Shown: positions 11,616-47,757, counted from the first letter of the stretch. The stretch: 64,000 nt of DNA from Candidatus Altimarinota bacterium (GCA_023268615.1 JALQUC010000011.1:3040-67039); one strand, 5' to 3'. Made by a program: numbers and translations. Notes: generated by a model from the letters alone, not told the origin.

Positions 11616-12335
11616 ATGCCAACTTCTCATCGTCCTTCATCTTCGGATGCTCGCTATGTTTTTATTCTTTTTGCTCTCATATTTGTTGTTCTCTTTTTTG
11701 CTTTCTTGATCTACTTTGTCTACTGACAAAAACAATTTACCACTCGGCTCGTAGACTCAGAGGGTACTCAAAAAGACACTATAGATCTCGTCCGAACAGG
11801 ATGAGCTGAACAGAAAAATGCTCCAACTGAAGCTGAATTGGCACCTGTAAATACGACTACTCCACAACCGACTACTCCTGCTGCGACTGCTACATTTGAC
11901 CCTAATAGATATAATCCTCGTACAACAGAGACCCTCCAACTCCGCGGTAGACAATTACTCGATAAATACTTCGCTTCTATCCAGAGTTCTGATTTTCAGA
12001 CAGCATGTTCACTGCTCTCCAATACCCTCTGTAATGCTCGACGAGATATTTACTCATACTCTCAATTCCTCAGCAAGCTCAATGGAGGATACCAGATAAA
12101 GTCCATCACTCTCGCTCCAGAACAAAAACCGACAGAAGCTATCTATTGCGTCGAATACACTTATTCTCTCAAGGCTGACCTCAACCCACAACCTGTCACA
12201 GAATATTTCCAATATCGTATCAAGACTCGACCAGACGGTGCTGATGAGATATCTGCACGAGTCTGTGAAAAGATAGTCAAAGACGGCAGAGAGAGACCTT
12301 GTCCGATTATTACTCCAAAGAAATACTGCTTCTAA
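11616..12335 (+). CDS. hypothetical membrane-anchored, Cys-containing protein
   Basis: ATG 11616, N-terminal TM helix (YVFILFALIFVVLFFAFLIYFVY), 2 TGA, then track ORF 11838..12335 in the same frame. No family recognised. Confidence 0.55.
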
Positions 12336-12482: not shown

Positions 12483-13397
12483 TTACCCCTGCATGATCAT
12501 AAATCGGTAGATTACATAACTGAATATCAGGATGATGACACCGATGAGAGCGTAGCTGATGGTCTTTTTTGCTTTGTCATTTTTCTCTTCATCTCCTGCA
12601 CCCGTGAGTACGAGGAATCCTGCATACATGACCATGATGATGACGATGAGTGCGATAAATCCATTGAGAAAGACTATAACCTTTGCCACTGTTCAGAGGA
12701 CTCCAGAGGCATCGAGGACACGATTGGTACAATTTGTTGGCACTCCAAATATTCTATTCCCACTACAATTTCCTCATCCATAGGCTATACGCACGAGAGG
12801 CTCAGCAATCATCATAATCACAAAACCGAGAACAGATCCTATGAATATTTTTTTACCGTCCTCAAATCCTTCTTCATTTCAAACTGCCGTGACCATACGA
12901 TAGAATGCATAGATAGCACCCAGAAAAAATACTGTTGCTGCCACATAACGGAGGAAATTGAGAATAGGGTAGACGATATTTATGACAACATTGTACACTG
13001 TTTGAGTACTGATAGTCTGAGTATTGAATACCCGTGTTTCAAATTGACGGATTACCGTGTAGGCTATTGATATCAAAAATAATCCCGCGAGACTCCACAC
13101 GAGTGTCTGTACCCATGTTGAGAAATCTTCTTCATCATTTTTGGATACCAGTAATCGTATCACCGAGATAAATGCTATGAGTACTGCTATGACAAAAACG
13201 ACAATAGCGAGACTTTTGAATATAAGTATGAGAGTATTTCGTATGCCTGTTCCGTCTGTCCTCCCACCAGTGTACCTGTAGTATTTGTCTGATTCATATA
13301 TCTGTCGTAGACCAGGGAGGTCAGCACTTACCCAGATACATCCTGCTATACCGATGAAAAAGAGAACAACTCTCAGATATTGGAAAAATTTTTGCAT
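12483..13397 (-). CDS. membrane protein made of three tandem TrbC/VirB2-like (T4SS pilin-like) TM-hairpin modules
   Basis: 304 aa from ATG 13395-13397 to TAA 12483. Three repeats of TM - acidic/basic loop - TM (..LLVSKNDEEDFSTW.., ..MVTAVG(TGA)NEEGFEDGKK.., ..LTGAGDEEKNDKAKK..). It starts 1 nt after the stop of the upstream ATPase gene. Confidence 0.6.
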
Positions 13398-13398
13398 A

Positions 13399-16377
13399 CT
13401 ATGTTTTTGTTTGAGGAGTATCTGCTGCCGGTGTTTCTGCTGTGTCTTCTGGTACCGGCATTTCTGCAGCATCTTCTGGCACACTCTCTCCGGTGATACC
13501 GAGTCGTGCCTCGATTTCCATATCGACATATTGTTTCTTGCGGCCGTACATCTTTCGAGAATATTCCTTGATGATTTGAGCTGCACGATCATTGCGATAA
13601 TAGTTGTCCCAGATGGTCTTGATATCAAATGGTCTGGTAGAAGCATTATCGATATTGAGCTTACAATAAGTGGTATAGTTTGCGATACCGATGATGTCCT
13701 GCTGAGAGAGAGTAGGGGCGTATTCTTTTTCGAGATACTCTGCATCCTCAGCACCGACCTTAAATGACATAATGGTTCCCACATTTCCGAAGACGGCTTC
13801 TTTGATACTCGGCTTACCTGTACTCTTGTATTTCTCACCTGATCCTCCTATCTGAGCGATGAACTGGTGAGCCATGATGAGCGCGAGTCTGTATTTACGA
13901 GCTTCTGAGAGTATTTCTCAGAATGTATCTGTCGCAAAATTCTGAAACTCATCGACATAGAAGAAGAAATCTTTTCTGTCCTTTTCTGCGACATCAGCAC
14001 GACTCATGGCTGCGAGATTGACCTTTGAGACAAAGACGAGACCGAGAAGCTGAGCATTGAGGTCACCGATTTTACCCTTTGAGAGATTGACGAGGAGACA
14101 GCGCTGATTGTCCATGATCTCTCGGATATTAAATGCTGATTTTGGCTGACCGATGATATTACGAATCGTTGTATTGGTGATAAATGGTCCAAATTTCGCA
14201 GAAAAGTACGGGATCATCTCCTGTTTTTCTCGGTCACCAGTTTGTGCGTATTCATGATCCCAGAATGCTTTGACGACAGGATTTTTTATCTTACTCATCT
14301 TGTATTTGAGGAATGATTCATCGACGAATAATCGTGGCACATCTATGAGCGTCCCGCCGTCTTCTTCATCATCCATGAGTGTGAGAGCACCATTACGGAA
14401 ATAGTGCTGGATACGAGGTCCAAATATCTCATCACCAAATATCTTGATAAATATAGAAGTAGCATCGAGAGAGGCACGGTCTTTTTCGAGTGCACGCAGG
14501 TCTGGGTCAGTCGAGATGACCTCGAGCATATTGAGACCCATAGGCCGCTCGTAATCCGAAGGATCAAATATCACCATATCACGAGCGCGGTCTTTTGGGG
14601 TAAAAGCGAGGATATCCTCGATGAGGTCACCGTGTGGATCGATGACTCCGAGACCTTCACCATTCCAGAGATCTTGGCGGGCGAGATATCCGATGAGGAC
14701 GGATTTACCTCCTCATGATTTACCGATGATATAGTGATGACGGCCGCGATCTTTTTTCTCGAAATAGATAGGCTGTTTCTTGTTTCTGTATTCATTCCAC
14801 CCGAGCAGTACTGATTCCTTGTATACAGGGAATCCTCCGAGCATTCTCTCCTTTTCTTCTGATTTTGGGAGCTTGCCTTCATCAATTGGCTGACCTCGTT
14901 TGTCACCGTCTGTTTGGAGTGGTATTTCTACACCCTCAGCTGTGAGGAACCCGTCATTGGCTCCGCGTGCGATGTTGCCGTATTTGTCAGTCTTGAGACG
15001 AGTACCATCTTCTGTGACGATGTATTCGCCATCACGGACATAGTCGACCATCAGGAGCTTTTCTTTTGGAGTTTTGAGATTGGATGGAGGAGCTACCTTC
15101 TTGTACCCGAGCCAGTAGATGATAGGGGATTTGTTATAGTTTACATCAGGGAAGTGGTAGAGTGTGGTGAGTTCATCGACACTATAGGGGCTCATACGAG
15201 TGACAAATCCTGCGAGCTTGAATTGAAATGCCATCTTGTGTAGGAATCGTATCAATGGTCGAAACATACCCTCGAGAATCTGATTATTATCGAGATTGTT
15301 GCAGTATTCGTTCGTATAGACACTTGTGGACGCGAGCATACTGTCGATACCATTTTGAGCGGCTTCGTCTGAATCGCTGCCTACGAGCACGAGCATACTG
15401 GCTTCAAATGCATTTTGAGCCGCATTCTCACCCACCATCTTTTGTGCTTCTTGTTCTGCTTGATTAAATATCTTGTAAGAGTCACCACCAGATGCACCCA
15501 TAGGATTCTCATCTGGTTTGTTTTGGACGAAATTGGTGACTATCCATCCGAGAGGAGCGAGGAGTTTGCCCACGAGTCACCACGAGAGAAGCCATGAGCC
15601 ACCACGATTGTATTTGCCTTTACTGTATTCTGAGGCGACTTTTTTTGCCTTCTTATTATATCTATGGGAGAGTGGTTTTGCGACGACCTGGAATACCGCG
15701 ACATCAGTCTGTTTGAGCCCACCAAATACATTGGTAAAAGTCGTGAGCGGATCTTCTTCGAAATATTTGTAGGTCTTGATAGGGAAGTATCGGTCCTGAT
15801 CCTTGCGAAAGCTCGTCGTACGAACGACAGAATGCTGGTCCTGAAATGTGATATAGTCTTTCTTGTCTCGGATGACGACCTCTGCGTCGGGATAGATCGA
15901 GGTAATAGTCTGATTGATAGTCGGGAACAGATCACGATAGGTGACGATAAAGAAAAATACTTGCCCTTCTTTATAGATAATCTCGTAGGAGAACTTGATA
16001 TGATTGAATATCGCATTCAGAACAGTGTATTTGAGTGAAGTGCTCGGTACTTTCCAGATAGAATTATGCACGAGACTCATGATGCCGGCCTTTTCCTTGA
16101 AGTCTTTCTTCGTCTCATGTTCTTTATCCAGTTTTGAATCAGAACGAGGGACAGATACCTGGATATACACGAGGTATCGTGCGAGCCAGAGCTCGAGGAG
16201 GAGTCGTACTATCCAGCGAATGACGAAAAATGCGACAATCGCACCGATGATGAGGAGAAGTATCTCCATGCCAGACATACCAGAAGATGCAGTATTGACC
16301 ACTTCTTGAACCGGTGTCATATTTGGGAGTACTTCTGTTGGTTTTTGTATGAAAATGCTTTGTGCCATATCTTGCAT
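13399..16377 (-). CDS. type IV secretion coupling-protein-like ATPase (VirD4/TraG/TraD, HerA-FtsK superfamily)
   Basis: 992 aa from four track ORFs in one frame, joined at TGA 15577, 14713 and 13918. N-terminal TM segment, Walker A IIGKS-G(TGA)-GGKS, Walker B FFYVDEFQNF, and SEARKYRLALIMAHQFIAQI. Confidence 0.7.
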
Positions 16378-23413: not shown

Positions 23414-24757
23414 ATGTCAGCAAAGATACCTCCCTCATCTCTGGAATCAGAACGCAGCCTCTTGGGGGCTCTTCTCATAGACAAAGAAGGGGTAATCCGA
23501 GTCGCAGATATTGTCGCTGCTGATGATTTCTATGATGAGAATCATGGGACTATTTATTCAGTCATTCTCGAGCTCTATCGCAAGAATCGTCCTATTGATA
23601 TCGTCACAGTTTCTGAGACTCTGACAAATCTCGGACAGCTCGATGCTGTCGGCTGAAATGTGTATCTCGCTGACCTCACTATCGCTGTGCCGACGAGTGC
23701 TCATGTATTTGAATACGCACAAATCGTCAAAGCAAAATCAGTCCTCCGAAAGCTCATCAATACTGGTAATCTCATTGCCTCGTTTGGTTTTGATGAAGCG
23801 ACTGAGATAAATACCCTTCTCGAAAAATCAGAGCAGTCACTCTTCAAAATCACACAAACATTTATCAAAAATAAGCTCACACATATCCGAGATATTCTCG
23901 ATATGCGGTATGAGGAATATGCCGGTATTCATGAGGATCCAAAACAAATAGAGCATTCTCGTATCATGACTGGTTTCCGCAATCTCGATAGCAAACTCCA
24001 ATGACTTCGTGGAGGTGATCTCGTCATCCTCGCGGCTCGTCCATCAATGGGTAAGACCGCGATGGCTCTCAATATCTCTCAAAGTGTTTCAAAAAAGAAA
24101 AATGTGGCTGTTTTTTCTCTCGAAATGAGTAAAGAACAACTCACTGATCGTATGGTCTGTGCTGCGATGGGTATTGATTCATGGAAACTCCAAAAAGGTG
24201 AGCTCACTGATGATGAATTTGCACGCATCGGTGATGCCCTCTCTGAGCTCTCGACTTCGCACATCTATATCGATGATTCTGCCAGCATGACACTCCTGGA
24301 AATCAAATCAAAATGTCGTCGTCTCAAAATAGAGTCAGGTCTCGATATGGTCATGATTGACTACCTCCAGCTCATTCAGGGAACCAATCCTATGAATCGT
24401 GTTCAGGAAATATCAGATATATCTCGCTGACTCAAATCTCTCGCTCGTGAACTCAATATCCCTATTATCGCCCTCTCTCAGCTCTCTCGAGCAGTTGAGA
24501 GTCGTGCCAGCAAGGAGCCAATTCTCTCTGACCTCCGTGAATCGGGTTCTATCGAGCAGGATGCAGATATCGTCCTCATGATCTACCGTGAAGAGTATTA
24601 CAATAATGCAGAAATGCAGGAAAGTGACATGAACAAAGGAAAAACAACCATATTTATCCGCAAGAATCGAAATGGTCCTGTCGGTAATGCTGAATTTATA
24701 TTTGACGGTAAATTCATGAAATTTCGCGAGATTGATGCGACGCGTGTGGGATTCTAG
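23414..24757 (+). CDS. dnaB: replicative DNA helicase DnaB
   Basis: 447 aa with 3 TGA. Motifs [40 protein letters not shown] and [16 protein letters not shown]. Confidence 0.92.
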
Positions 24758-29769: not shown

Positions 29770-30417
29770 TTAATTACAAATTACTTTCCAGCTTCCATCT
29801 GGATTCTTTTCTGTGTTTTCTTGTTCGTAGGTCAGACCTGTTCTGCGGTCTATGTGTATCTGGTGCGCTGTACTCGTGTGTTTGAGGAGGAGTACGACAC
29901 GGTAGGGTGCATCATCTGTTGGATTCTCTGTGATAAATTTGATAGTATCATTTCTAAATTCTATCTGTATTTTTTTGAGATCGAGAGGTGCGGCTACCTC
30001 AGTACACTCGTAGAGTTCAGCTTCGAGAGCTGCGAGTGACCATGATTTGGTTATTTTTGAGTCTGCATCATAGGCGTTTTCATCTGTTTCTGCGAGATTT
30101 ACTTCTGAGGTAAATCAGATACTATTTGGCGTTGTTCAGAAATCGAGTTCAATGAGTCGTTTTCTCACTATTTTCCCATCAAGTGTTTTGCCGAGAAGGG
30201 CATTTACTTTTTCTTCATCGACAGCTGCTACTATTTTGACAGCTATTTCTTCGACTTTATTTCTCTCACGAGTTCGAAAAAGTCCTCCTATATTACCGAG
30301 CTGTGTCAGTAAAACTATGATTACAATGACAATCATTATTTCCACAAGTGTGAATCAGCCTCGTCTGCTATTTTTTTCTTTCCCAAAAAGTGTTTTTGGT
30401 GTAGTATTTCAGTACAT
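29770..30417 (-). CDS. type IV pilin / pseudopilin-like protein with prepilin-type N-terminus
   Basis: 215 aa. Leader MYGNTTPKTLFGKEKNSRRG-G(TGA)|FTLVEIMIVIVIIVLL matches the class III signal (G-1, F+1, E+5). Confidence 0.75.
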
Positions 30418-30434
30418 TTATCAAAAATTATTTT

Positions 30435-31289
30435 ATGTACAGAGTATATATTCTCCTCTTTCTTGCAATAGCCTCGTCTGTCTTTGCAGTTGATTCTTTT
30501 CAGAGTATTCTCCAAGCAAAGAAAATAGGCGATACTGCGGTCACGGTTTCATGGACACCTATACCAGAAGCGACTCAGTACAAGATTTTTTATGATGAGA
30601 GCGCTCTCCTCGAACCTGAGGATCCTCGTCTACTCTTTGACACTGATTATATCTCTACAACTGAGGGCGAGCTCACAGAGATAACCCCTGCAACAGAATA
30701 CACAATCATCGTTCGTGGTTATAATGCCGAATCACAGGAAATAGGCGCTACACTTCCACTCCATGTGAAGACATATTCTCGTGCTCCAGATATGAATCTC
30801 GTTCGTGATCCTCTCGTGAGCAGCGATACAACTGTCGAGCTCTGATTTTCTCGTCCCATAGATACTACAAAGACCCAAATACAGCTCATCGATACTGCAA
30901 CAAAAAAGCCTCTTCCTGTGGAAAATATCAAAAATTCTCCTAATGATCTACGAATCGTATTAGTCACGCTCAAGACAAAGATGGAGCTCGATGGTCAGTA
31001 TGAGCTCACCCTCCAAAAAGTGACCTCTCTCGATGGGGCTGAGTTGCCAGCCGAAAATCGTATACCACTCAAGGTCGTCTATGGCGGATCACTCCCACCT
31101 CTTGATACCCTACCTCTCGATGTGGTACCTTCTCCTGGTCCTCTCGAAGAAGAGATAGCTGAACCAGTCCTGACGGAGCCAGTTCCTATTGATAGACTCC
31201 CACAAACAGGTCCCGCTTCGATATTTTTATTATTTCTCATTGCTCTTGGTCTCTTTTTTGCACAAAAAAAGCTCTCAAAGAGAGCTTAA
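30435..31289 (+). CDS. secreted FN3-like protein with C-terminal LPXTG sortase anchor
   Basis: Signal peptide MYRVYILLFLAIASSVFA, FN3-like segment (TAVTVSWTPIPEATQYKIFY), one TGA, and C-terminus LPQTG + hydrophobic helix + KKLSKRA. Confidence 0.75.
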
Positions 31290-32416: not shown

Positions 32417-32881
32417 CTATTTGAAGAAGAAGGGAGCTATGGTTTTGAGTATCCACGGGACGAGTGCGAGTGCTACGAGACCGATGAGTATATCCATGAT
32501 TTTGCTCTTGGCTTTGCTTTTTATTTCTTCTGTTGCAACACCGGAGATAGACATACCTATACCGAGTATGACCATGAGGAGGACGCCTATGACGAGACTG
32601 ATAAAGAAGATATATTTGTATATACTTGAGATAAATTCTATAAATCCATTTGATGCTGAAATATAGCATTTATATCGTGCCATCTGACTGTTGTTTCCAA
32701 AAAAACCACCAAAGCTTCACTTTTCTCCCGCAATCCCGCAGGGTTCACTTGTGTAGGTCACAATTTGGAGATTTTTCCCGAGAAGTCCTGGAGGGAGATC
32801 ATCCTGTTGGTAATTTCACCCCTGTGCCCAGGCACACGATGTCGCGAGGAGAGTGAGTATGAGTATGTATATTTTTTTCAT
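32417..32881 (-). CDS. secreted TrbC/VirB2-like (T4SS pilin-like) protein, single module
   Basis: 154 aa. Signal peptide MKKIYILILTLLATSCAWAQG, 2 TGA, then TM - GVATEEIKSKAKSK - TM hairpin. Confidence 0.6.
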
Positions 32882-32887
32882 AGTTTT

Positions 32888-33865
32888 TTAGAAGAGATTA
32901 AGTCATACGAGTTCTACGAGAAGCGTGTATGAGAGTATGAGGAGTATCGTGGCAAAGAAAGTGTAGAGAATTATTTTTTTACCCTTATCAGCCCGTTCTT
33001 CATCTCCTGCTGCAGTGATGTAGTAGTATGACCCTATGATAATCGTGACGATAGCAATAGGTCCTGCCATAAAGAGGAAGAAATTTGCTCCTGCTACGAG
33101 TACACTGATGATGCCTGTGGTATTGAGCGTTCTTCAGAAGAATATAGCACGATAGATAGATTCGATAAATCCGACTATCACGAGAGCAATAGTTCCATAG
33201 ACGAGTCTCATTTTTGCAGTTTTTGATATGCCTTCATCTTTTCCTCAGAGGAGCATCGTAAATCATCCCCAAGTAAACATGACAACGGCTGTTCCAATCA
33301 TCGCCATTTCGAAAAATTTTACTATAGCAATCACACTACCATTTCCCCAGAAATTCTGTGGACAGAAGAAATAGTTACATGTTTCGAGAGCTGATTGGCT
33401 GAATTCTCCGCCCGGATCTCGTGTCGATATTGATCATACTTTACGACTAAAACCACTCGTCAGATAGCCACTTCCAGTGAATATACGATAGAGGAGCTCA
33501 GCGACATTGATCAGAAATAGTCCTATAACTATGAGGAGTATCCGATACATTCCATCACTGCGCTTTTCTTCACTTCCCATGCTGCTGACCCAGAGGAAAC
33601 CAACATAGAGCATAGCGAGGAGTGCTACACCATTGAGGATTATCCGGACAGCTTGGATAATATCAAGAGCGACATTTCTCACAGCTCATACGAGATCTCC
33701 AGAACCAGGGCGGAAGAGCGAGTTATCTGCGAGATTACGAGTACTGCTCGTGGCATTACCTATTCCTGTGACGCCAGCTGCCCATGAGGTATTCATTATG
33801 AGTACGCAGACACAGAAGAGTATGTGTGGTGCAAATTGACGAATGTTTTTGATAAAATAATGCAT
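32888..33865 (-). CDS. membrane protein made of three tandem T4SS pilin-like TM-hairpin modules (paralog of 12483..13397)
   Basis: 325 aa, codon-walked with 6 TGA and no TAA/TAG. The three loops are ..WVSSMGSEEKRSDG.., ..LLG(TGA)GKDEGISKTAK.. and ..ITAAGDEERADKGKK.., each flanked by TM helices. Confidence 0.65.
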
Positions 33866-33868
33866 AGA

Positions 33869-35383
33869 TTAAATATCCTGATTAGTAAAAAATCCTGAAT
33901 AATCTTCTCGGCGAATGATGCCTTTTTGTTCGAGTTCTTGAGCGTGAACATACATAGGGATCATGCCTTCTGACCGACCCATCTGGATGGCATTATTGAT
34001 CTGTGATAGGTCGCCTGAACGGATGAGATTTTTGATACCACTATTCACGAGCATGAGCTCGTAGATCGCTATTCGTTTATTTGTTCCATCTCTGCGAGGT
34101 ACCAATCTCTGCGATAGGACTCCCAGGAGACTATCTGCGAGTCTCGTGTATATCTGTCTCTGTTGTTCTGGACTGAAGAATTGAGCAATACGACTAATAG
34201 TCTGCACACTACCAGATGTATGGAGTGTAGAGAAGACGAGATGTCCTGTCTCTGCGAGATTAAGAGCTGCTTCGACTGTATCTGGATCACGCATCTCACC
34301 GATCATGACGACATTTGGGTCTTCTCGCATAGAGGCCCGAATAGCGGAGACAAACGAACTTGTATCCCTTCAGACTTCTCGCTGTGAAAATATAGATTTT
34401 TTGTCTTTGAAGAGGAATTCTATAGGGTCTTCGATGGTAATGATATTTTCACCACGAGTCTTATTGATTTCCTCGAGCATGGCAACGAGCGTCGTTGATT
34501 TACCTGACCCTGTCGGTCCTGTGACGAGTACGAGACCTTGTTTTGCATTAATAAAACGATCTATAGCTTGAGGTAAATCGAGTTCCTGCATCGTTTTGGC
34601 ATTTTGCTCAATTCTTCGGAAAGTGAAATTGAGATTTTCGAGTGCCCAGGCTCCGTTAACACGAAATGAAATACCATCCGTTTCTGTCACATAACCAAAG
34701 TCTACATCGTGTGATTTTTCGAGTTTTTCGAGTATGTCTGGGTGTTTTTGAAGTATCTTATTCTTGACCTGGTCCATGTGTTCTCGTGAGAGAGATGGTT
34801 CATGTTCCATTTTGATGAGGACTCATTCGATTCTCACTGTGATTGGTTTTCATCCTGCGAGATGTACATCTGATGCCTTTGCAGCTACTGCGTACCGCAA
34901 TATGCTCTCTATATTGAGTTGTTTTTTCTCTTCGTCATCAAAAAATTTCCACGATTTTGGATCAGTCGTATCTCAACTTGTGACATGAGATATATCTTGT
35001 TGCTGTTGTTTTTCTCGTACAAAATTAATTACCTGAGGAAATCTCTCTCGAGCATAGGCCTTAGCTTCATCAATACTCTGGACAATATGTACTGCTTGCC
35101 GGATTCCTGTTATTTCGAGGACATCTCCTATCTTTCCTGGAATAACAATCGTCGTGCCTCCATTATTTTGGAGGTATTTTGTTATCTCGAGTATACCGGT
35201 GATAAAATCAGTTTTGATTCCCTCAACACGACTCAAATCAAACACAGCTACTTGAGGTGCTTCTTTGGCGTATTTTAGTACGCTTCAGAATATCGCGGGT
35301 GATGATTTCTCGTCGAGAGTACCAACACAAGTGAGTATGAGGAGACCATCTTCGTGAGAGAGACTGTTTTGAGTTATTTCCAT
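33869..35383 (-). CDS. pilT: PilT-family type IV pilus retraction ATPase fused to an N-terminal STAS domain
   Basis: 504 aa, codon-walked. The first ~115 residues are STAS-like (..VAVFDLSRVEGIKTDFITGILEI..VLEITGIRQAVHIVQSIDEA). PilT core has GPTGSGKSTT, ITIEDPIEF, REDPNVVMIGEMRD and GHLVFSTLHT. Confidence 0.8.
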
Positions 35384-35467: not shown

Positions 35468-38128
35468 TTATTTTATTCGTATTACTTTTATTCCTTCTTC
35501 TGGCCCATCTGATGGTCATTTCTGCCTAAAAAGAGGGTGTCCACTTGATGATGAAGGTGCGCCAATTTGCTGTAAATCATCGAGATTAATCTCTACTTGC
35601 TGTACTTGAGTATTTGCTTTTGCTGAGAGTATACCTCGTACAACACGATAATTCACCTCATCCATCATCTGTATGAAGAGCTCGTAGGCTCGCTCTTGGT
35701 AGACGAGGAGGGGTTGTTTTTGATTATACCCCTCAAATGCTACATCTTCACGGAGATTTGCCATTTTCTCAATATGTTCCATCCAGAGCTGATCGATAGC
35801 AGCGAGGTATATTTCTCTCTGAAATTGGTCAAAATTCCTCTCTCCGAAGAGTTTTTGGACTTCTGTGAGTTTGTCTCTCCAGAGGGTATAGATTTCATCT
35901 TTTACGTCTTCAAACTCATTACCCTGCATTGTGACAGGGGTTTTGAGTATATCGCTCATACTCGCAGAGAGTTTATCTATATCGACTTTTCCTTCCTCAT
36001 CTTGGTGCTTCATGACCATGCGTTCAGCTTCATCGCGGAATATTTTTTCAATTTGGAGATCAATATCTGATCCGGTGTCATCATTTTTTGCGAAATCTTC
36101 GAGCATTTTTTGCCGTCTGCCATAGACGATGAGACGATGCTGATTCATGACATCATCGTATTCGAGGACATGTTTTCGCATGTCAAAATGTCGTCCTTCT
36201 ACTTGTTTCTGAATTGCGGTAATTCTCTTTGTTAGTGTGCGGCTCTGTATGAGTGGTTCGTTTTCTGGGAGACTCGCGAAAAATGGTGAATTGAACATCG
36301 AGAAGAGTTTGTCTCCACCAAATATACGCATGATATCATCACTTGGTGAGACCAAGAACTGACTCATACCAGGATCACCCTGACGACCAGCACGACCACG
36401 GAGCTGATTGTCGATACGACGAGTTTCGTGTTTTTCTGTACCGAGTATTGCGAGGCCGCCCAGTTCTGCGACTCATTCACCGAGCTTGATATCTGTTCCT
36501 CGTCCTGCCATATTGGTGGCTATGGTGATAGCACCTCGCTGACCTGCTTTACCCACTATCTCAGCCTCTCGTGCATCCTGTTTTGCATTGAGGACTTCGT
36601 GTTTGATGCCTTTTTTTGTGAGCATATCAGAGAGGAGCTCGGACTTTGCGACCGAGACGGTACCGACGAGGATAGGCTGTCCAGTTGCGTGGATTTTTTC
36701 GATAACACCGACGATGTAATCAAATTTCCCTTTTTCATTTTTGAAGAGAAGATCAGCACGGTCATCACGAATGAGGGGTTTGTTCGTCGGTATCTGTACG
36801 ACACTGAGACCGTAGATTTTCTGGAATTCTTCTTCCTCTGTTTTTGCTGTACCAGTCATCCCTGAGAGCTTCTCATAGAGACGAAAAAAGTTCTGATAGG
36901 TGATATTTGCTAGTGTCTTGCTCTCTCGTTGTATTGTGACATTTTCCTTTGCTTCAAGTGCCTGATGGAGACCATTGCTAAATCTCCTTCACTCCATGAC
37001 ACGACCAGTATGTTCGTCGATAATCATGATATCCTGTCCTCGTACGAGGTAGTCGATGTCGCGTATGTAGCATGCCTTTGCACGGAGAGCATTCTCTATG
37101 TGATGGAGGTCATTGTAGTGATCTGAGACAAATATGTTTTCTATTCCCAGGGACTTTTCTATCCTCTCGATACCTTCTTCTGTGAGGGCAACTGTTTTTG
37201 TTTTTTCATCGACGGTGTAATGCTCTGGATGTGAGAGCTTGTTTGCCATTTGGGCAAACTTGAGATATTTCGAAGTCGGTTCATCATCAGGTGAAGATAT
37301 AATGAGTGGTGTACGAGCCTCATCGACGAGAATCGAATCCACCTCATCGACGATAGCAAATGCACGACGAGACATGACCTGATCAGTGATACTCGGAGCC
37401 ATATTATCACGCAGATAATCAAATCCGAGCTCAGTATTTGTCACATAGACGATGTCACAGTTGTAGTTTTTTCTCTTCTCATCACGAGATTGATTATTGA
37501 GTACAACACCAGTCGTGAGACCGAGAGCGCTATATATAATACTCATTTCTCCAGCATCACGACGAGAGAGATATTCATTAACTGTCACAACATGGACAGG
37601 ATCACCAGACAGGGCATTGAGATACGCTGCGAGAGTCGCTACGAGTGTTTTACCTTCACCTGTACGCATCTCAGGTATATTTCCGTCATTGAGTGTGAGT
37701 GCACCGATGAGCTGTACATCAAATGGTATCATATTCCATACCTTCTGCGATCCATCAGAGAGAGTGAATTCTTGACCAAAAATCAGCTCACTTGCCCTTC
37801 TGTGGAGTGCGAGAGCTTCAAAACGGATATTCTGCACCATAGCCTCGCGAGACTGTATGTATGTTTTTTTATTTTTCTCATGTGCTTCGGCTTTTTCTAT
37901 GAGACCGAGAGAGACATCGTTATTGATTTTGTCTTTTTCTGTGATAAATGCGAGTCGAATTGGCTCAAATCGTGAACTAAATTCTCTTGTTTTTGATTTT
38001 ACCGCATCGAGATTATCAATAGTTTTTTGATATTCTTCTTCAATTTTTTTGATTTTTAAGAGGTCTTTCTGGTATCCATGGAGCATGACGACTGTGGGAT
38101 CGCCGAAGAGACGGTTCAGGATGTTCAT
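35468..38128 (-). CDS. secA: preprotein translocase ATPase SecA
   Basis: 886 aa, junctions codon-walked. Motifs [38 protein letters not shown] and [17 protein letters not shown]. The last TGA (35516) is read through to TAA 35468. Confidence 0.93.
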
Positions 38129-41903: not shown

Positions 41904-43169
41904 TTATAGACCATTTATAGCTAGATACAAATCACTTGCCATTCTTCTAAGAGGATTTCGTTCTTTTTCATAATTTTTGTAATTATCACGATTTTCTTGA
42001 GACCAATTTCTAATCGTTACCCACCCATTTTCTGTTTTAATTCTTACATATTTTTCTTGCTCAAGTCTTCATCTAATTTTTTGGAGGGTTTGAGCTCGTA
42101 TAGTTCATAAGTTGTACTCTCTGCATATATCTGATATTCCTTTGAGATAAAAGAGCAATTTTTCTGGTGTTAAATCCATTGTTCAAATATTATGCTTTAT
42201 AGGATTCCTCAATTGCTTCTTTTGAGACTTATCAAATAAATGCTCTATGTGACTAATAGACCAAGAGAGTATCATGTTGATATCATTCAGTAAGTAGTAT
42301 GCATTTTCTATATTTTTTGCTCCTTTTATTCCATATTTTTCGGTGTATGTTTGTAGTTTCTTAAAGTTATTATGACCTACAAAACAATATACCATCAGAA
42401 ATGATTTCCATCGTAGTTCTGATCAGAGAGCGTGACGCAAATTATCAATTTTTCTTTTGTAATTTTCTCGTTCCAACCGTATTTTTTTATCAATCACTCC
42501 TCGTGTTTTATCTCAGAAAAATTCTTTTGTTTTTACTCTTCTTTTTTCAACAATTGTTTTGAGTATTTCTTGAGTTTGAGATACAGAAATAGAGGAATTA
42601 CCAATGACTATTTTTTGTTCACTCTGACTTGCAACTCCACCAATAATACTCCTCAAATCGCCAACCAATTTTGGTAAGAGTACATTTGCAATAAGAATCA
42701 AAGATTGTTTGAGAATATCATCTTTTTGCCCATTCAAAAGGGCTTCTCTTGTTTTTTTATGTTTTATTTCCTGGCTTTCATAGTGTTCTAGTAGGTTTCT
42801 GAGTTCACTCAAATATTTAAAATGCTTTTTAAATTCTTCCCAACTGTTATAACAACAGAAAAAATGCCGTTTTAATCAGAGAAATAAAAACGCAAAGTCT
42901 TTTATAACATATTGATATTGACTTGTGAGAGGATCGAGCTCTTTATTTTTAAATCGAATTGTAAAAGGAATATGCCCTGTTTCATGTGAAAAGTTTTTAT
43001 CTTGTTCTTCTAGTAAACTGTAGAGTTTTTTACCTTGTTTGTTGTTTTTGATTCCTTCACGAAAACATTCATCAATTGCAGCACTTGTAAGATCTATGAA
43101 ATAGCGTAACTGATGACGAAAGTCTCGGTTTTCAAATAAGTTATGGAGAAATATATACCCTTTTTTCAT
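41904..43169 (-). CDS. hypothetical 421-aa protein with two RNxxxH (HEPN-type) motifs and a wHTH-like tail
   Basis: Track ORFs 42876..43169, 42513..42812 and 42183..42395 plus the 41904..42179 segment share one frame, separated only by TGA. Motifs LSELRNLLEH (aa 124-129) and QLRNPIKH (aa 321-326). About 27% GC by hand count of one 60-nt line. Confidence 0.55.
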
Positions 43170-43206
43170 AAGAGTATTGTATTTCTTTTGTGATTAATAA
43201 AAGAGA

Positions 43207-43306
43207 TTGAGGAACCCCTCAAAAATGGGTTACCTCAAACCCCCGAATATGAGGAGACAAGGAAACAGCTGCTTGAGGAACCCCTCAAAAATGGGTTACC
43301 TCAAAC
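43207..43306 (-). repeat. CRISPR-like mini-array: two identical 34-nt direct repeats around a unique 32-nt spacer
   Basis: TTGAGGAACCCCTCAAAAATGGGTTACCTCAAAC occurs at 43207-43240 and 43273-43306. The spacer is CCCCGAATATGAGGAGACAAGGAAACAGCTGC. The minus-strand repeat reads GTTTGAGGTAACCCATTTTTGAGGGGTTCCTCAA. Confidence 0.45.
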
Positions 43307-43310
43307 AGAT

Positions 43311-43346
43311 ATTTGAGATATACCCATTTTCAAGAGGATTCAAGAC
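43311..43346 (+). repeat. inverted, degenerate copy of the 34-nt repeat (anti-repeat-like)
   Basis: ATTTGAGATATACCCATTTTCAAGAGGATTCAAGAC aligns to the reverse complement of the repeat. About 25 of the first 26 positions can pair, counting G-U pairs and one bulge. It lies 4 nt from repeat 2. Confidence 0.45.
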
Positions 43347-43405
43347 TTGTGGACTTACGGTAAACTGCCGATCTTGATTCCGTTATGTGTTTTCCTTCCT
43401 ATTTT

Positions 43406-45553
43406 CTAAATCTTCTGCAATCCGATTCGTCCTTTGTCATTATCGACTTGGATGACTTTTACATGGACTTTGTCTCCAGTGTTCACGACATCTTCGACGC
43501 GTTCAACTCGTTTATCAGAGAGTTTGCTAATATGGATCATACCAGATTTGCCACCACCGATTTCGACGATAGCTCCGACACCTTCGAGGATTTTCACGAC
43601 TTCACCATCGAATTCTTGACCGACTTCGATATCACGGACGATATTTTCGATAGCTTTTTTCGCACCTTCACCAGCTTCTTTGCTTGGACCAGTGATGACG
43701 ACTGTTCCATCGTCTTCAATGCTGATTTCTACGCCGAAGTATTTCTGCATGTCCTGAATAGTTTCACCACCTTTACCGATGACCATACCGATTTTCTCAG
43801 GATTGATCTTCATAGAGATGAGTGCAGGAGCATGAGGAGAGACTTCCGGACGAGGCTTCTCGATAGATTTGAGCATACCCTGGAGGATAAATTCTCGAGC
43901 ACCTTTTGCTTGTTCAAATACTTCTTTGACGATATTGAGGCTGAGTCCATCGATTTTTACATCGACCTGGAGAGCAGTGATACCTTTACGAGTACCAGCG
44001 ACCTTGAAATCCATATCTCCGAGGAAATCTTCTTGAGCCTGGATATCAGAGAGGACGACATATTTTCCTGTCTCATCATCGTATATCATACCCATAGCGA
44101 CACCAGAAACAGGAGCTGAGATAGGGACACCAGCATCCATGAGAGCGAGTGTCGATCCACAGACTGAACCCATAGAGCTCGAGCCATTACAGGTGTGGAC
44201 TTCTGAGACGACACGGACAGTGTAGCCGAATTCTTCTACCTTTGGGAGGACAGGAACGAGCGCTTTTTCAGCGAGATTTCCGTGACCGACTTCACGACGA
44301 CCGACTCCACGCATAGCTCGGACTTCACCGACTGAGTAAGGAGGGAAGTTGTAGTGATGCATGTAACGACGCTCGTATTCTGGATACATACCCTCGACGA
44401 GTTCATTATCGAGAGGTCCACCGAGAGTGGCAATAGAGAGTACTGATGTGACACCTCGACGGAAATGACCTGAACCATGTGTGAGAGGGAGGAGACCCAC
44501 TTCTGTCATGATAGGGCGTACTTCGTCACCTTTGCGGCCATCTAGACGACGACCAGTAGCGAGGACATTTTTACGCATGATTTTTTTCACATATTTGTAG
44601 ACCAGTTCTCCGATTTCGTTGCCGTTCAATTCTTCGGTATCTTCTGTGTAACCGAGTGCTGTTTTTGTTTCCTCTATGAGATGCTCGAGAGCATGGTGAA
44701 AGTCGATTTTACCGATATTATAGAGCGCTTCGATTTTTTCTGGAGAGAGTGTGGCAAAGACCTTTTCTTCGAGACCTGCAATGCCAGCACGGGTATCGAG
44801 ATCCATCTTTGTGATAGGGTATTTCGCATTCACTGTTGCGACGAAGTCTTTCTGCGCTGCAGAGAGATCAGCGAGGACCTTCTGAGCGTATTCAAATCCA
44901 CGCATCACCATCTCTTCACTTGCTTCTTTTCCACCCATTTCGACCATCGTGATAATCGATGAAGTACCAGCGACGACGAGCTCATAGAGAGCGTTATTTA
45001 TTTCTTCAAAGGTTGGATCAAATATCATACCACCGTCTTCCATGACCGCGAGACGGACACCAGAGACGGAGTCCTCAAACTGATGAACACCAGCAAGCTG
45101 GAGAGCGATGCTCGCACCTGTGATACCCCAGACACCGAAATCTTGTTTACCAGTCGCAGAGTAGATAGTTGGGATTATTTGGACTTCGTTTGTAGTGCCT
45201 TTTGGGAACATCGGACGGATAGGTCGATCGATGAGACGAGAGTTGAGAATAGCAGAAGTCGTCGGACGAGCTTCACGCTTGTTAAAACGTCCACCACCGA
45301 TATGACCTGTCGCGTAAAAACGCTCTTGGTAATCAACGGAAAGAGGGAAGAAGTCTGCTCCTGGTTTGCCTTTTTTGCTCACACCAACGGTCGTGAGGAG
45401 GACGTGACCAAGAGAATCCTTGATAGTGACAGCACCATCGATGAGGAGGGCAAATGAACCAGTCTCAAAGGTGTAGGTCTTACCAGCGATAGTATAAGAC
45501 TTTGAAATCGGAGTAATCTCTCCGACGTTATTGTCGCGAATACCTGAAATCAT
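43406..45553 (-). CDS. pnp: polyribonucleotide nucleotidyltransferase (PNPase)
   Basis: Uninterrupted 715-aa ORF with two RNase PH domains, then KH and S1 (..GKGGETIQDM.. / ..GAIVEIGGGKSGMIHISK..). Confidence 0.95.
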   Translation of the reverse strand: MISGIRDNNVGEITPISKSYTIAGKTYTFETGSFALLIDGAVTIKDSLGHVLLTTVGVSKKGKPGADFFPLSVDYQERFYATGHIGGGRFNKREARPTTSAILNSRLIDRPIRPMFPKGTTNEVQIIPTIYSATGKQDFGVWGITGASIALQLAGVHQFEDSVSGVRLAVMEDGGMIFDPTFEEINNALYELVVAGTSSIITMVEMGGKEASEEMVMRGFEYAQKVLADLSAAQKDFVATVNAKYPITKMDLDTRAGIAGLEEKVFATLSPEKIEALYNIGKIDFHHALEHLIEETKTALGYTEDTEELNGNEIGELVYKYVKKIMRKNVLATGRRLDGRKGDEVRPIMTEVGLLPLTHGSGHFRRGVTSVLSIATLGGPLDNELVEGMYPEYERRYMHHYNFPPYSVGEVRAMRGVGRREVGHGNLAEKALVPVLPKVEEFGYTVRVVSEVHTCNGSSSMGSVCGSTLALMDAGVPISAPVSGVAMGMIYDDETGKYVVLSDIQAQEDFLGDMDFKVAGTRKGITALQVDVKIDGLSLNIVKEVFEQAKGAREFILQGMLKSIEKPRPEVSPHAPALISMKINPEKIGMVIGKGGETIQDMQKYFGVEISIEDDGTVVITGPSKEAGEGAKKAIENIVRDIEVGQEFDGEVVKILEGVGAIVEIGGGKSGMIHISKLSDKRVERVEDVVNTGDKVHVKVIQVDNDKGRIGLQKI

Positions 45554-47244: not shown

Positions 47245-47757
47245 TTAGAGGTCCCCAGTCCAGTTTCCTACACCATTTGGACTATTACCACCCTGGCTAC
47301 GACTCCCACCAAAAGTAGGGATGCCAGATGATGAGCCACTTGATGAGAAGCCTGTTTGTCCACTTGCGACAGCAAAACATGATTGGTCAGTATTTCCAAA
47401 TACACGATCTGAGACACATTTCATCGTCTGAAATATATTTCCTGGACTGAACTTCTCACCAATTGACTCAAATCCTACTGCTCGAGAGAGGGCAGGTGTG
47501 ACCAGAATAATAACAATCATCACGATGAGACCGATGAGTGAATATCGAATCATATTGATTGCGGGATGGACTTTGTGTTCATCACCTCCAGAGATGACTA
47601 ACAAAAATCCTCACCAAAGCACGAAAACAATTGTGAGGATAATAGCGATGAGGAGGAGGATGGCGATTCCGACGGTCATGAGCTCTTCCAGAGTATAAAT
47701 CTGAGAAGCTGAGTCTGCAAAGGTGGATGTCTGAGCGTAGACTATTGAGGTGAACAT
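47245..47757 (-). CDS. T4SS pilin-like protein, single module with Gly/Ser-rich tail
   Basis: 170 aa with one TGA. TM - LVISGGDEHKVHPA - TM hairpin, then a ..SSSGSSSGIPTFGGSRSQGGNSPNG tail. Its ATG 47757 overlaps the end of the KH gene. Confidence 0.6.

What the first reader, a model, noticed from the sequence alone, without database searches (positions are those of the whole stretch)
12483..13397. Poly-pilin: one protein made of three tandem T4SS pilin-like TM hairpins, coupled to a VirD4-like ATPase
The 304-aa product contains three consecutive modules of TM helix, short charged loop (KNDEEDF / GNEEGFEDGKK / GAGDEEKNDKAKK) and TM helix. This is the topology of TrbC/VirB2-type pilins, which are normally single ~100-aa modules. 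Its ATG lies 1 nt after the stop of the 992-aa coupling-protein-like ATPase, implying co-translation. A covalent pilin triplet could be a precursor cleaved into subunits. It could also be a fixed trimeric membrane platform.
Basis: inference. Interest (0 to 1): 0.65.

Follow-up and report, generated by a model that had tools for sequence, protein, structure and literature searches.

The report
Three-in-one secretion-pilin protein of Gracilibacteria
An ultrasmall bacterium that reads the stop codon TGA as glycine encodes a membrane protein made of three fused copies of the small hairpin unit that normally builds conjugation-type pili; the gene sits directly behind a secretion motor gene, and this fused form is common in related bacteria but was not described in the papers I could search.

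Summary
The gene lies on the minus strand (13397..12483). It is open only if TGA is read as glycine (genetic code 25, Gracilibacteria).

The 304-aa product has a probable signal peptide and three helix-loop-helix hairpins.
- The whole protein matches Pfam PF18895 (T4SS_pilin) at 50.2 bits against a cutoff of 26.6. The match comes in three stretches.
- The three modules are homologous to each other (hhalign probability 93-97%).
- All three are conserved in every orthologue.
- The ATG lies 1 nt after the stop of a 992-aa ATPase of the type IV secretion (T4SS) VirD4/VirB4 superfamily. This order holds in all 20 related loci that include upstream DNA.

The window also holds a second, collinear triple pilin. 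It follows a STAS-PilT ATPase by 3 nt. Two single-module pilins are also present.

Fused pilins with 2 to at least 9 modules occur across the Candidate Phyla Radiation (CPR, also called Patescibacteria). The papers I could search describe arrays of separate VirB2-like pilin genes, which are essential in Southlakia. I found no mention of fusion within one gene.

Most likely this is an uncleaved, pseudo-trimeric VirB2-like subunit of the Patescibacteria T4SS, handled by the adjacent ATPase. A cleaved precursor or a static membrane platform remain open. I class it as a new variant of a known kind, of moderate to high interest.

The parts
12483..13397 (-). Poly-pilin A gene: 304 aa under code 25, with signal peptide plus three T4SS_pilin hairpin modules
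   Evidence: sequence; PF18895 at 50.2 bits; NF045849 at 39.9 bits; family alignment
13323..13397 (-). Codons 1-25: probable Sec signal peptide (basic n-region, hydrophobic core, V-S-A before D26)
   Evidence: Cleavage is inferred from the (-3,-1) rule and was not tested.
13029..13250 (-). Module 1 (aa 50-123), loop KNDEEDF
   Evidence: 19.6 bits on PF18895; hhalign; helices 50-84/89-123
12780..13007 (-). Module 2 (aa 131-206), loop G(TGA)NEEGFEDGKK
   Evidence: (23.1 bits)
12711..12779 (-). Linker 2-3 (aa 207-229). It holds two invariant cysteines (C211, C223) and is as conserved as the helices. It is probably an extracellular disulfide-bonded hairpin.
   Evidence: conservation 0.72; short strands
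12489..12710 (-). Module 3 (aa 230-303), loop GAGDEEKNDKAKK
   Evidence: (32.0 bits, above the cutoff on its own)
13399..16377 (-). ATPase of the T4SS VirD4/VirB4 superfamily, 992 aa. It has an N-terminal TM anchor, a ~450-aa DUF8128 region and a Walker A motif GKSGGGKS. Its stop lies 1 nt before the pilin ATG.
   Evidence: T4SS-DNA_transf, TrwB_AAD_bind, TraG-D_C; Foldseek matches to TrwK/VirB4
11616..12335 (+). Convergent 239-aa membrane-anchored protein with no family match. It sits next to the pilin in all Gracilibacteria loci examined. Whether it belongs to the system is not known.
33869..35383 (-). STAS-PilT ATPase, 504 aa. It heads a second operon with pilin-like genes.
   Evidence: PilT 2ewv, E 4e-81; TIGR01420 at 365.7 bits, above the cutoff
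32888..33865 (-). Poly-pilin B: 325 aa, three T4SS_pilin modules, starting 3 nt after the PilT stop. It is collinear with poly-pilin A.
   Evidence: 50.6 bits, 3 stretches; hhalign 99.1%, E 1e-18
32417..32881 (-). Single-module pilin-like protein, 154 aa, starting 6 nt after the poly-pilin B stop
   Evidence: 23.9 bits, below the cutoff; same gene order in L008
47245..47757 (-). Single-module T4SS_pilin protein, 170 aa as listed. The true start may lie upstream.
   Evidence: (27.5 bits)

Best explanation
The gene encodes a Sec-inserted membrane protein of a Gracilibacteria-class CPR bacterium. It consists of a cleavable signal peptide followed by three anciently triplicated, now diverged, VirB2/T4SS_pilin-type helical hairpins. 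Each hairpin loop would face the cytoplasm, and the termini and linkers would face outward.

The gene is co-transcribed with, and probably translationally coupled to, the membrane-anchored ATPase of the VirD4/VirB4 superfamily encoded just upstream.

I think the chain most likely stays in one piece. It would act as a pseudo-heterotrimeric subunit of the Patescibacteria T4SS pilus or conduit. That gives a fixed 1:1:1 supply of three non-equivalent pilin modules, which other CPR lineages supply from arrays of separate pilin genes. The adjacent ATPase would energise extraction from the membrane or assembly.

Shown:
- family assignment
- internal homology of the three modules
- conservation of all three modules
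- synteny with the ATPase
- a paralogous operon in the same window

Inferred:
- membrane topology
- signal-peptide cleavage
- absence of internal cleavage
- filament formation
- the role of the ATPase
For: Family and architecture:
- PF18895 scores above its cutoff in three stretches, and each module matches alone.
- NCBIfam matches a pilin-like conjugal transfer family in three stretches.
- Module-to-module hhalign probabilities are 93-97%.
- There is no DNA-level repeat, so the triplication is old.

Conservation:
- All three modules, and the full ~304-aa length, are kept in 32 homologues.
- Linker 2-3 has two invariant cysteines and is as conserved as the helices (0.72 against 0.67-0.78). This argues for a structured connector rather than a disposable spacer.
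- The positions that look like small-x-small cleavage motifs at the ends of modules 1 and 2 align with the same helix motif near the C-terminus of module 3. I therefore read them as a family helix feature, not a cleavage site.
- Paralogue B is collinear over all three modules, so the fused form predates an old duplication and has been kept twice.

Link to the ATPase:
- The ATPase comes immediately before the pilin in 20 of 20 loci with upstream DNA.
- The gap between its stop and the pilin ATG is 1-15 nt.

Background from papers:
- VirB2-like pilins are found in Patescibacteria, with arrays of 2-11 divergent pilin genes (PMC12102498).
- The pilin genes are essential in Southlakia (PMC10633639).
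Against: The AlphaFold2 model is weak (pLDDT 60.8, pTM 0.40). Foldseek found nothing for it.

No VirB4, VirB6 or VirB3 gene lies in the window. Membership of a complete T4SS is therefore not shown.

A gene placed 1 nt behind a 1000-aa ATPase gene suggests roughly equal amounts of the two proteins. That is unlike a major pilin, which is normally made in large excess.

Other CPR poly-pilins carry 4 to at least 9 nearly identical modules. That pattern fits a dosage or precursor logic at least as well.

The RNA data were uninformative.
Confidence: 0.5

Rival explanations
1. Polyprotein precursor. The chain is inserted by Sec. The second helix of each hairpin acts as an internal signal sequence for the next module. 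Signal peptidase, or another protease, cuts at the outer face. This releases three separate ~9-11 kDa pilins in equal amounts.
For: The topology allows it. Each module boundary lies on the outer face after an in-to-out helix.

Single-module PF18895 pilins each carry their own signal peptide, for example the 154-aa protein in this window.

In some other CPR poly-pilins with near-identical repeats, the module boundaries do carry A-x-A-like motifs. P0153 has 'ATAGG' and 'ASAGT', and P0156 has 'ALAHP'. Many identical copies in one chain would fit a dosage device.

Linker 1-2 is no more conserved than the N-terminal region (0.56).
Against: No conserved small-x-small motif follows the hydrophobic core at either boundary of this family. 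After module 1 the sequence is RQFETRV. After module 2 it is R-I-A-Y-G-G, with Arg at the start.

Linker 2-3 is highly conserved and has an invariant cysteine pair.

The modules are diverged and each is conserved within its own orthologous column set, so this is not a simple dosage device here.

No protease gene lies in the operon.
Confidence: 0.2
2. Static membrane platform. The six-helix protein never leaves the membrane. It serves as the docking or channel partner of a hexameric ATPase, much as PilC does for PilB/PilT, or VirB3/VirB6 for VirB4.
For: Two different hexameric-motor families in one window, T4CP-like and PilT, are each followed within 1-3 nt by a triple-hairpin gene. The PilT arrangement recurs in L008.

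Tight coupling suggests near-equal amounts of the two proteins.

VirB6 homologues are reported as absent from Gracilibacteria (PMC12102498), which leaves that role unfilled.
Against: The sequence family is the pilin family, not VirB6, VirB3 or PilC.

The number of modules ranges from 1 to at least 9 across CPR. That is hard to reconcile with one fixed platform geometry.

In L009 and L006 the same ATPase is followed by several pilin genes of different module number.

In L004 and L005, multi-module pilins occur with no ATPase within 10 kb.
Confidence: 0.2
3. Unrelated polytopic membrane protein, such as a transporter. On this reading, its resemblance to PF18895 comes only from hydrophobic composition.
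For: Weak sub-threshold matches to MatE, DUF350 and GtrII. Hydrophobic profiles are prone to spurious matches.
Against: All the alternative families fall below their cutoffs, while PF18895 is well above its own.

The alignments are anchored on the charged loop motif G-(D/N)-E-E...K-x-K-K in every module.

An independent NCBIfam pilin-like model also matches in three stretches.

The link to T4SS-type ATPases is conserved.
Confidence: 0.03

Closest known systems
VirB2/TrbC/TraA conjugative (T4SS) pilins: Pfam PF04956 and PF18895
   Same: Each module is a hairpin of two hydrophobic helices with a short charged loop, preceded by a signal peptide. The sequence matches PF18895 above its cutoff. The gene is associated with a T4SS-type ATPase.
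   Different: Known pilins are single modules of about 70-120 aa. This protein has three in one chain, 304 aa. The loops are acidic then basic (DEE...KAKK). I did not compare them with the loops of solved pilins. No VirB4, VirB5 or VirB6 gene lies nearby. Pilus formation is untested.
VirB2-like pilin gene arrays of Patescibacteria (Southlakia epibionticum SEML1_0006-0019; TM7x; PMC12102498, PMC10633639, PMC12857230)
   Same: The phylum and the Pfam family are the same. Both involve several divergent pilin modules per system, a chromosomal housekeeping context and no relaxase nearby.
   Different: In those systems the modules are separate genes, 2-11 per array. Here they are fused in one reading frame. 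In those systems most pilin genes lie near virB4. Here the neighbour is a T4CP-like ATPase or a PilT ATPase.
Mbov_0395 family pilin-like conjugal transfer protein of Mycoplasma ICEs (NCBIfam NF045849)
   Same: It is a VirB2-like hairpin protein in a bacterium with a single membrane. Its profile matches all three modules (39.9 bits).
   Different: The score is 0.1 bit below the equivalog cutoff of 40. The Mycoplasma profile is a single module of 80 positions.
Type IV coupling proteins VirD4/TrwB/TraG, and VirB4/TrwK (for the upstream ATPase)
   Same: The ATPase has a Walker A motif and an N-terminal membrane anchor. Family members match T4SS-DNA_transf, TrwB_AAD_bind and TraG-D_C. NCBI's PGAP annotation pipeline names homologues as 'type IV secretory system conjugative DNA transfer family protein'.
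   Different: An extra ~450-aa DUF8128 region precedes the ATPase domain. That architecture resembles VirB3-VirB4. The only significant Foldseek matches are TrwK/VirB4 chains, but the model is poor. No relaxase gene is in the window.
Archaeal Ced/Ted DNA-import pili built of VirB2-like pilins
   Same: VirB2-like hairpin pilins working with a VirB4/HerA-type ATPase in cells with one membrane, and not used for classical conjugation.
   Different: As far as I recall, those pilins are single modules. The only support here is a weak NCBIfam CedD match restricted to the P-loop region.

Membership tests
T4SS_pilin / VirB2-like pilins (PF18895, clan with PF04956) | Profile match above the curated cutoff | tested here: met
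   Whole protein 50.2 bits against 26.6. Modules alone score 19.6, 23.1 and 32.0 bits, so only module 3 passes by itself.
T4SS_pilin / VirB2-like pilins (PF18895, clan with PF04956) | Signal peptide followed by two hydrophobic helices joined by a short charged loop | tested here: met
   Hydropathy and AlphaFold2 secondary structure show this arrangement three times over. The orientation is inferred.
T4SS_pilin / VirB2-like pilins (PF18895, clan with PF04956) | Small single-module protein (about 70-120 aa when mature) | tested here: not met
   304 aa with three modules, conserved as such in orthologues.
T4SS_pilin / VirB2-like pilins (PF18895, clan with PF04956) | Encoded with T4SS machinery (VirB4 and other Mpf genes) | tested here: inconclusive
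   A VirD4/VirB4-superfamily ATPase is adjacent in 20 of 20 loci. No VirB4, VirB3, VirB6 or VirB8 family match was found in the ORFs scanned in the window. The rest of the genome was not available.
T4SS_pilin / VirB2-like pilins (PF18895, clan with PF04956) | Polymerises into an extracellular, lipid-containing pilus | not testable with these tools
   Needs microscopy or biochemistry.
Type IV coupling protein (VirD4/TrwB/TraG), for the upstream ATPase | Profile match of the ATPase domain to T4CP families | tested here: met
   For the window protein, TrwB_AAD_bind scores 22.0 against 20.5, and TraG-D_C scores 20.6 against 22. Across 24 homologues, T4SS-DNA_transf matches in 17 (best E 3e-14), TrwB_AAD_bind in 17 and TraG-D_C in 24.
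Type IV coupling protein (VirD4/TrwB/TraG), for the upstream ATPase | Short N-terminal membrane domain directly followed by the ATPase domain, with association to a relaxase or substrate | tested here: not met
   About 450 aa of DUF8128 lie between the anchor and Walker A. There is no relaxase in the window. Foldseek matches are to VirB4 only (from a poor model).
PilT/PilU retraction ATPase, for the gene upstream of poly-pilin B | Profile match above the curated cutoff | tested here: met
   TIGR01420 scores 365.7 bits against 319.1. PDB PilT 2ewv matches at E 4e-81. The protein carries an extra N-terminal STAS domain.

The most novel reading that the evidence does not exclude
Chains of VirB2-type hairpins, with 2 to at least 9 per polypeptide, are a general CPR invention. 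On this reading they build a surface filament or membrane conduit from covalently linked pilin strings. Dedicated motors drive it: a DUF8128 T4CP-like ATPase and a STAS-PilT. It would work independently of the canonical VirB4 machinery. That would make it a previously unrecognised T4SS-derived apparatus, possibly the host-contact or uptake device of these epibionts.
Probability: 0.15. Interest if true: 0.8.

Novelty: new variant of a known kind. Interest (0 to 1): 0.55.

Why it matters
The T4SS of Patescibacteria, including its VirB2-like pilins, is essential for epibiotic growth in the one species tested (PMC10633639). Its function is described as completely unknown (PMC11665869).

Fused pilins bear on how such a pilus or conduit is built.
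- If the chain stays intact, the three modules must occupy neighbouring positions in the assembly. That would constrain its symmetry and stoichiometry.
- If the chain is cut, it would be a pilin polyprotein. I found no report of one for T4SS pilins.

The repeated pairing of a fused pilin with a motor ATPase also nominates specific partners for experiments: a T4CP-like ATPase with a VirB4-like N-terminal region, and a STAS-PilT.

There is a practical consequence as well. Many database entries for this family are cut short at TGA or carry Trp where Gly belongs. Surveys based on them will undercount or distort the family.

Tried and rejected
- **Table-11 ORF listing and plus-strand translation.** No gene appears, which led to the minus strand and code 25.
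- **Code 4 (TGA=Trp).** Rejected. No orthologue has Trp at the columns that hold TGA.
- **Foldseek of the pilin model against the PDB.** No match with E below 0.6. The model is weak and the fold is a generic helical one.
- **PDB sequence and profile searches with the ATPase.** Only the P-loop region of TrwB matched (E 1e-3 to 5e-3), so they were uninformative.
- **AlphaFold2 of the ATPase.** pLDDT 53.8. The ATPase domain was not modelled, so the VirB4 fold matches are only a lead.
- **RNA runs.** One contig spans the ATPase-pilin junction, but it comes from a run of doubtful RNA status. The genuine metatranscriptome covers only the ATPase of a related strain. No conclusion on co-transcription or relative expression is possible.
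- **Promoter and terminator scan.** No more sites than in shuffled sequence.
- **DNA repeat search inside the gene.** None found.
- **Pfam on other window ORFs.** Apart from the pilin-like genes and the PilT ATPase, they match housekeeping or unrelated families or nothing; no other T4SS component turned up.
- **Literature searches.** Searches for PF18895, DUF8128 and fused or tandem VirB2 found no description of pilin fusions within one gene.
- **Transporter reading.** Rejected; see the fourth rival explanation.

Full report
**1. What is at the coordinates**

Under the standard bacterial code there is no long ORF at 12483-13397 on either strand. The minus strand reads as a continuous protein except for three in-frame TGA codons, at codons 173, 208 and 235.

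TGA is a glycine codon here.
- I aligned the gene with 13 orthologues from related loci. At the 22 columns that hold a TGA somewhere, the other sequences carry Gly in 161 of 265 cells and Trp in none. Background Gly is 8%.
- TGA codons in the window's SecA, DnaB and LepA fall at classic conserved glycines (the motifs are from my own knowledge).

Homologues are labelled Candidatus Gracilibacteria, the lineage known to use code 25. The source samples are estuary, sludge and wastewater metagenomes.

**2. Architecture**

Hydropathy gives seven hydrophobic segments. The model is weak overall (pLDDT 60.8, pTM 0.40). Its secondary structure is nevertheless clear:
- helix 2-24
- three helix pairs at 50-84/89-123, 131-170/175-206 and 230-265/270-303
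- a short strand pair in the 207-229 linker

The N-terminus looks like a Sec signal peptide: a basic n-region, a hydrophobic core, and V-S-A before D26. The -1 and -3 positions are small or neutral across the family. Cleavage is inferred.

The likely topology puts the three short charged loops in the cytoplasm, and the termini and linkers outside. This rests on the signal peptide, the even number of helices per module and the invariant cysteine pair in linker 2-3. That is the VirB2 orientation. It means hairpins can be strung together without changing topology.

**3. Family**

- The whole protein scores 50.2 bits on PF18895 (T4SS_pilin) against a cutoff of 26.6, in three stretches.
- The modules alone score 19.6, 23.1 and 32.0 bits. 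PF18895 is the top match for modules 2 and 3 and the second match, just behind DUF350, for module 1.
- NCBIfam NF045849, a pilin-like conjugal transfer protein of Mycoplasma ICEs, matches in three stretches at 39.9 bits against a cutoff of 40.
- No transporter family reaches its cutoff.

The three modules are homologous to one another. hhalign of the module sub-alignments gives 96%, 93% and 97% probability (E 1.6e-9, 4e-7 and 9e-11). The alignments are anchored on the loop motif G-(D/N)-E-E...K-x-K-K. Identity between modules is only 18-24%, and there is no repeat at the DNA level. The triplication is therefore old.

**4. Conservation and relatives**

A database search found 60 homologues. The full-length ones are 304-334 aa and range down to 32% identity. 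Shorter entries are probably truncations at TGA, and several carry W where G belongs.

In the 32-sequence alignment all three modules are conserved. C211 and C223 in linker 2-3 are invariant. That linker is as conserved (0.72) as the helices (0.67-0.78), while linker 1-2 is less so (0.56).

A profile search of 1.84 billion cluster representatives gave:
- 29,817 matches at E ≤ 1e-3
- 1,640 at E ≤ 1e-10
- 106 at E ≤ 1e-30

I applied my own single-module HMM to the best 148 of these. Module counts were 1 (2 proteins), 2 (20), 3 (95), 4 (11), 5 (6), 6 (7), 7 (5), 8 (1) and 9 (1). This sample is biased towards multi-module proteins, because the query was a three-module profile.

Examples include:
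- P0153, 583 aa, with near-identical repeats
- P0107, 820 aa
- P0217, 1147 aa

The members that carry names are 'uncharacterized' proteins of Peregrinibacteria and Andersenbacteria. Fused pilins are thus a widespread CPR architecture, not a peculiarity of this genome.

**5. Genomic context**

The upstream gene (16377..13399) encodes a 992-aa ATPase. It has one strong N-terminal hydrophobic segment followed by a very basic stretch, so the bulk of the protein is probably cytoplasmic. Next comes a ~450-aa region that the precomputed Pfam annotation of homologues calls DUF8128. After that comes a Walker A motif, GKSGGGKS.

By sequence, the ATPase domain is of the coupling-protein type:
- For the window protein, TrwB_AAD_bind scores 22.0 bits against a cutoff of 20.5.
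- Across 24 homologues, T4SS-DNA_transf matches in 17 (best E 3e-14), TrwB_AAD_bind in 17 and TraG-D_C in 24.
- The PGAP name is 'type IV secretory system conjugative DNA transfer family protein'.

The AlphaFold2 model is poor (pLDDT 53.8). Even so, its only significant Foldseek matches are 14 chains of TrwK/VirB4 from plasmid R388, with E from 8e-5 to 3e-3. The overall layout (anchor, large N-terminal domain, ATPase) also resembles VirB3-VirB4. I leave this unresolved and call it an ATPase of the VirD4/VirB4 superfamily.

The ATPase is 59-65% identical across most of the Gracilibacteria homologues listed.

The gene order, ATPase then pilin on the same strand, holds in all 20 related loci where upstream DNA is available. 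The gap from stop to ATG is 1 nt in the window and 1-15 nt in 13 orthologues, with no obvious Shine-Dalgarno motif.

A convergent 239-aa membrane protein with no family match is also conserved next to the pilin. The surroundings are housekeeping genes: Mur ligase, MurJ-like flippase, RRF, UvrD and DnaB. This is a chromosomal locus, not a mobile element.

More distant lineages keep the link in looser form.
- L006: ATPase, then pilins of 334 aa and 304 aa.
- L009: ATPase, then pilin-like genes of 192, 294 and 140 aa on the same strand, with two more (123 and 115 aa) on the opposite strand.
- L026 (Peregrinibacteria): a seven-module pilin 4 kb from a DUF8128 ATPase.

L004 and L005 have multi-module pilins with no ATPase within 10 kb.

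**6. A second copy of the theme in the same window**

I scanned all code-25 ORFs of the window with the module HMMs. This found:
- a second triple pilin (33865..32888, 325 aa; PF18895 at 50.6 bits in three stretches)
- a 154-aa single-module pilin directly after it (32881..32417)
- a 170-aa single-module pilin at 47757..47245

The second triple pilin starts 3 nt after the stop of a PilT-family ATPase with an N-terminal STAS domain. That ATPase scores 365.7 bits on TIGR01420, above its cutoff, and matches PDB PilT 2ewv at E 4e-81.

The same order recurs in another Gracilibacteria genome, L008: T2SSE ATPase, 326-aa pilin, 149-aa pilin.

Families A and B align collinearly over all three modules (hhalign 99.1%, E 1e-18). 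The three-module form therefore predates their duplication and has been maintained in both.

**7. What is already known**

Quiñonero-Coronel et al. 2025 (PMC12102498) used PF18895 to find VirB2-like pilins in 1,948 Patescibacteria assemblies. Their findings include:
- 441 arrays of 2-11 pilin genes, with only 25% mean identity within an array
- 5,713 VirD4-like T4CP homologues, mostly far from virB4
- T4SS genes that are dispersed in Gracilibacteria, with VirB6 not detected there

Wang et al. 2023 (PMC10633639) showed that the T4SS cluster and its pilin genes are essential in Southlakia. A 2025 review (PMC12857230) calls these the only monoderm T4SSs with pilins.

None of the passages I read in these papers mentions several pilin modules fused in one polypeptide or a T4CP-pilin operon. 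Searches for such terms found nothing relevant. The literature tool does not cover everything, so 'undescribed' is provisional.

**8. Mechanism**

Shown:
- membership of the VirB2-like superfamily
- internal triplication
- purifying selection on all modules and on linker 2-3
- a conserved operon with a motor ATPase
- a paralogous operon in the same window

Inferred as most likely (confidence about 0.5): the chain loses its signal peptide but is not cut internally. It serves as a pseudo-heterotrimeric pilin subunit of the T4SS pilus or conduit, supplying in fixed 1:1:1 ratio what other CPR supply from separate, divergent and individually essential pilin genes. The adjacent ATPase would extract or assemble it, as VirB4 is thought to do for VirB2 (from my own knowledge: Kerr and Christie 2010).

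Arguments for no internal cleavage:
- Linker 2-3 is conserved and carries an invariant cysteine pair.
- No conserved small-x-small motif follows the hydrophobic cores.
- The A/S-Y motif near the module ends recurs near the C-terminus of the last module, so I read it as a helix feature.

Rivals:
- A cleaved polyprotein (0.2). The topology permits it, and A-x-A-like boundaries in some near-identical-repeat poly-pilins hint at it.
- A static platform for hexameric ATPases (0.2). The double pairing with two motor families, the tight coupling and the missing VirB6 favour it. The variable module number and the pilin arrays disfavour it.
- A chance resemblance (0.03).

**9. Verdict**

The feature is a real, conserved and widespread fused form of a known protein kind. 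I found it uncharacterised in the literature I could search. Its function is still open.

Noticed in passing
whole window (e.g. 49937-51817, 35468-38128, 23414-24757): The whole window uses genetic code 25 (TGA=Gly). Standard table-11 ORF calling fragments nearly every gene.
   Followed up: yes
window 32417-35383 (minus strand): A second operon: STAS-domain PilT ATPase, then a 325-aa triple T4SS_pilin protein after a 3-nt gap, then a 154-aa single pilin after a 6-nt gap. The same order occurs in locus L008.
   Followed up: yes
window 47245-47757 (minus strand): A further single-module T4SS_pilin protein (27.5 bits) with a Ser/Gly-rich C-terminal tail. Its listed start looks like the end of a signal peptide, so the true start may lie upstream.
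   Followed up: partly
window 13399-16377 (minus strand): The ATPase matches VirD4/TraG families by sequence. However, a low-confidence AlphaFold2 model hits only TrwK/VirB4 chains in Foldseek. The ~450-aa DUF8128 region may be a VirB4-type N-terminal domain. This is unresolved.
   Followed up: partly
window 11616-12335 (plus strand): A 239-aa membrane-anchored, Cys-containing protein with no Pfam match. It is convergent to the pilin gene and conserved in that position in all Gracilibacteria loci examined.
   Followed up: partly
window 29770-31289: A prepilin-type (GFTLVE N-methylation motif) type IV pilin-like gene at 30417..29770. Next to it is an fn3-domain protein (30435..31289) ending in LPQTG, a hydrophobic segment and a basic tail, which is a sortase-type anchor signal.
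   Followed up: no
loci L004, L005, L006, L009, L026; proteins P0107, P0153, P0188, P0217, P0240: Other CPR lineages (Peregrinibacteria, Andersenbacteria and others) encode T4SS_pilin proteins with 2 to at least 9 hairpin modules. Some have near-identical repeats. They are often in arrays, and twice a PKD-domain protein follows them.
   Followed up: partly
proteins P0001, P0002, P0033, P0056, P0009 (database homologues): Public protein entries for this family are often mistranslated. Some have Trp in place of Gly (code 4). Some are cut at TGA (code 11; 169-217 aa fragments). In P0009 an ATPase C-terminus is run together with the pilin.
   Followed up: partly
window 41904-43169 (minus strand): A 421-aa ORF with no Pfam match. 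It lies partly in the lowest-GC stretch of the window (GC 0.357 at 42001-44000, against about 0.42 elsewhere). It may be foreign DNA.
   Followed up: no
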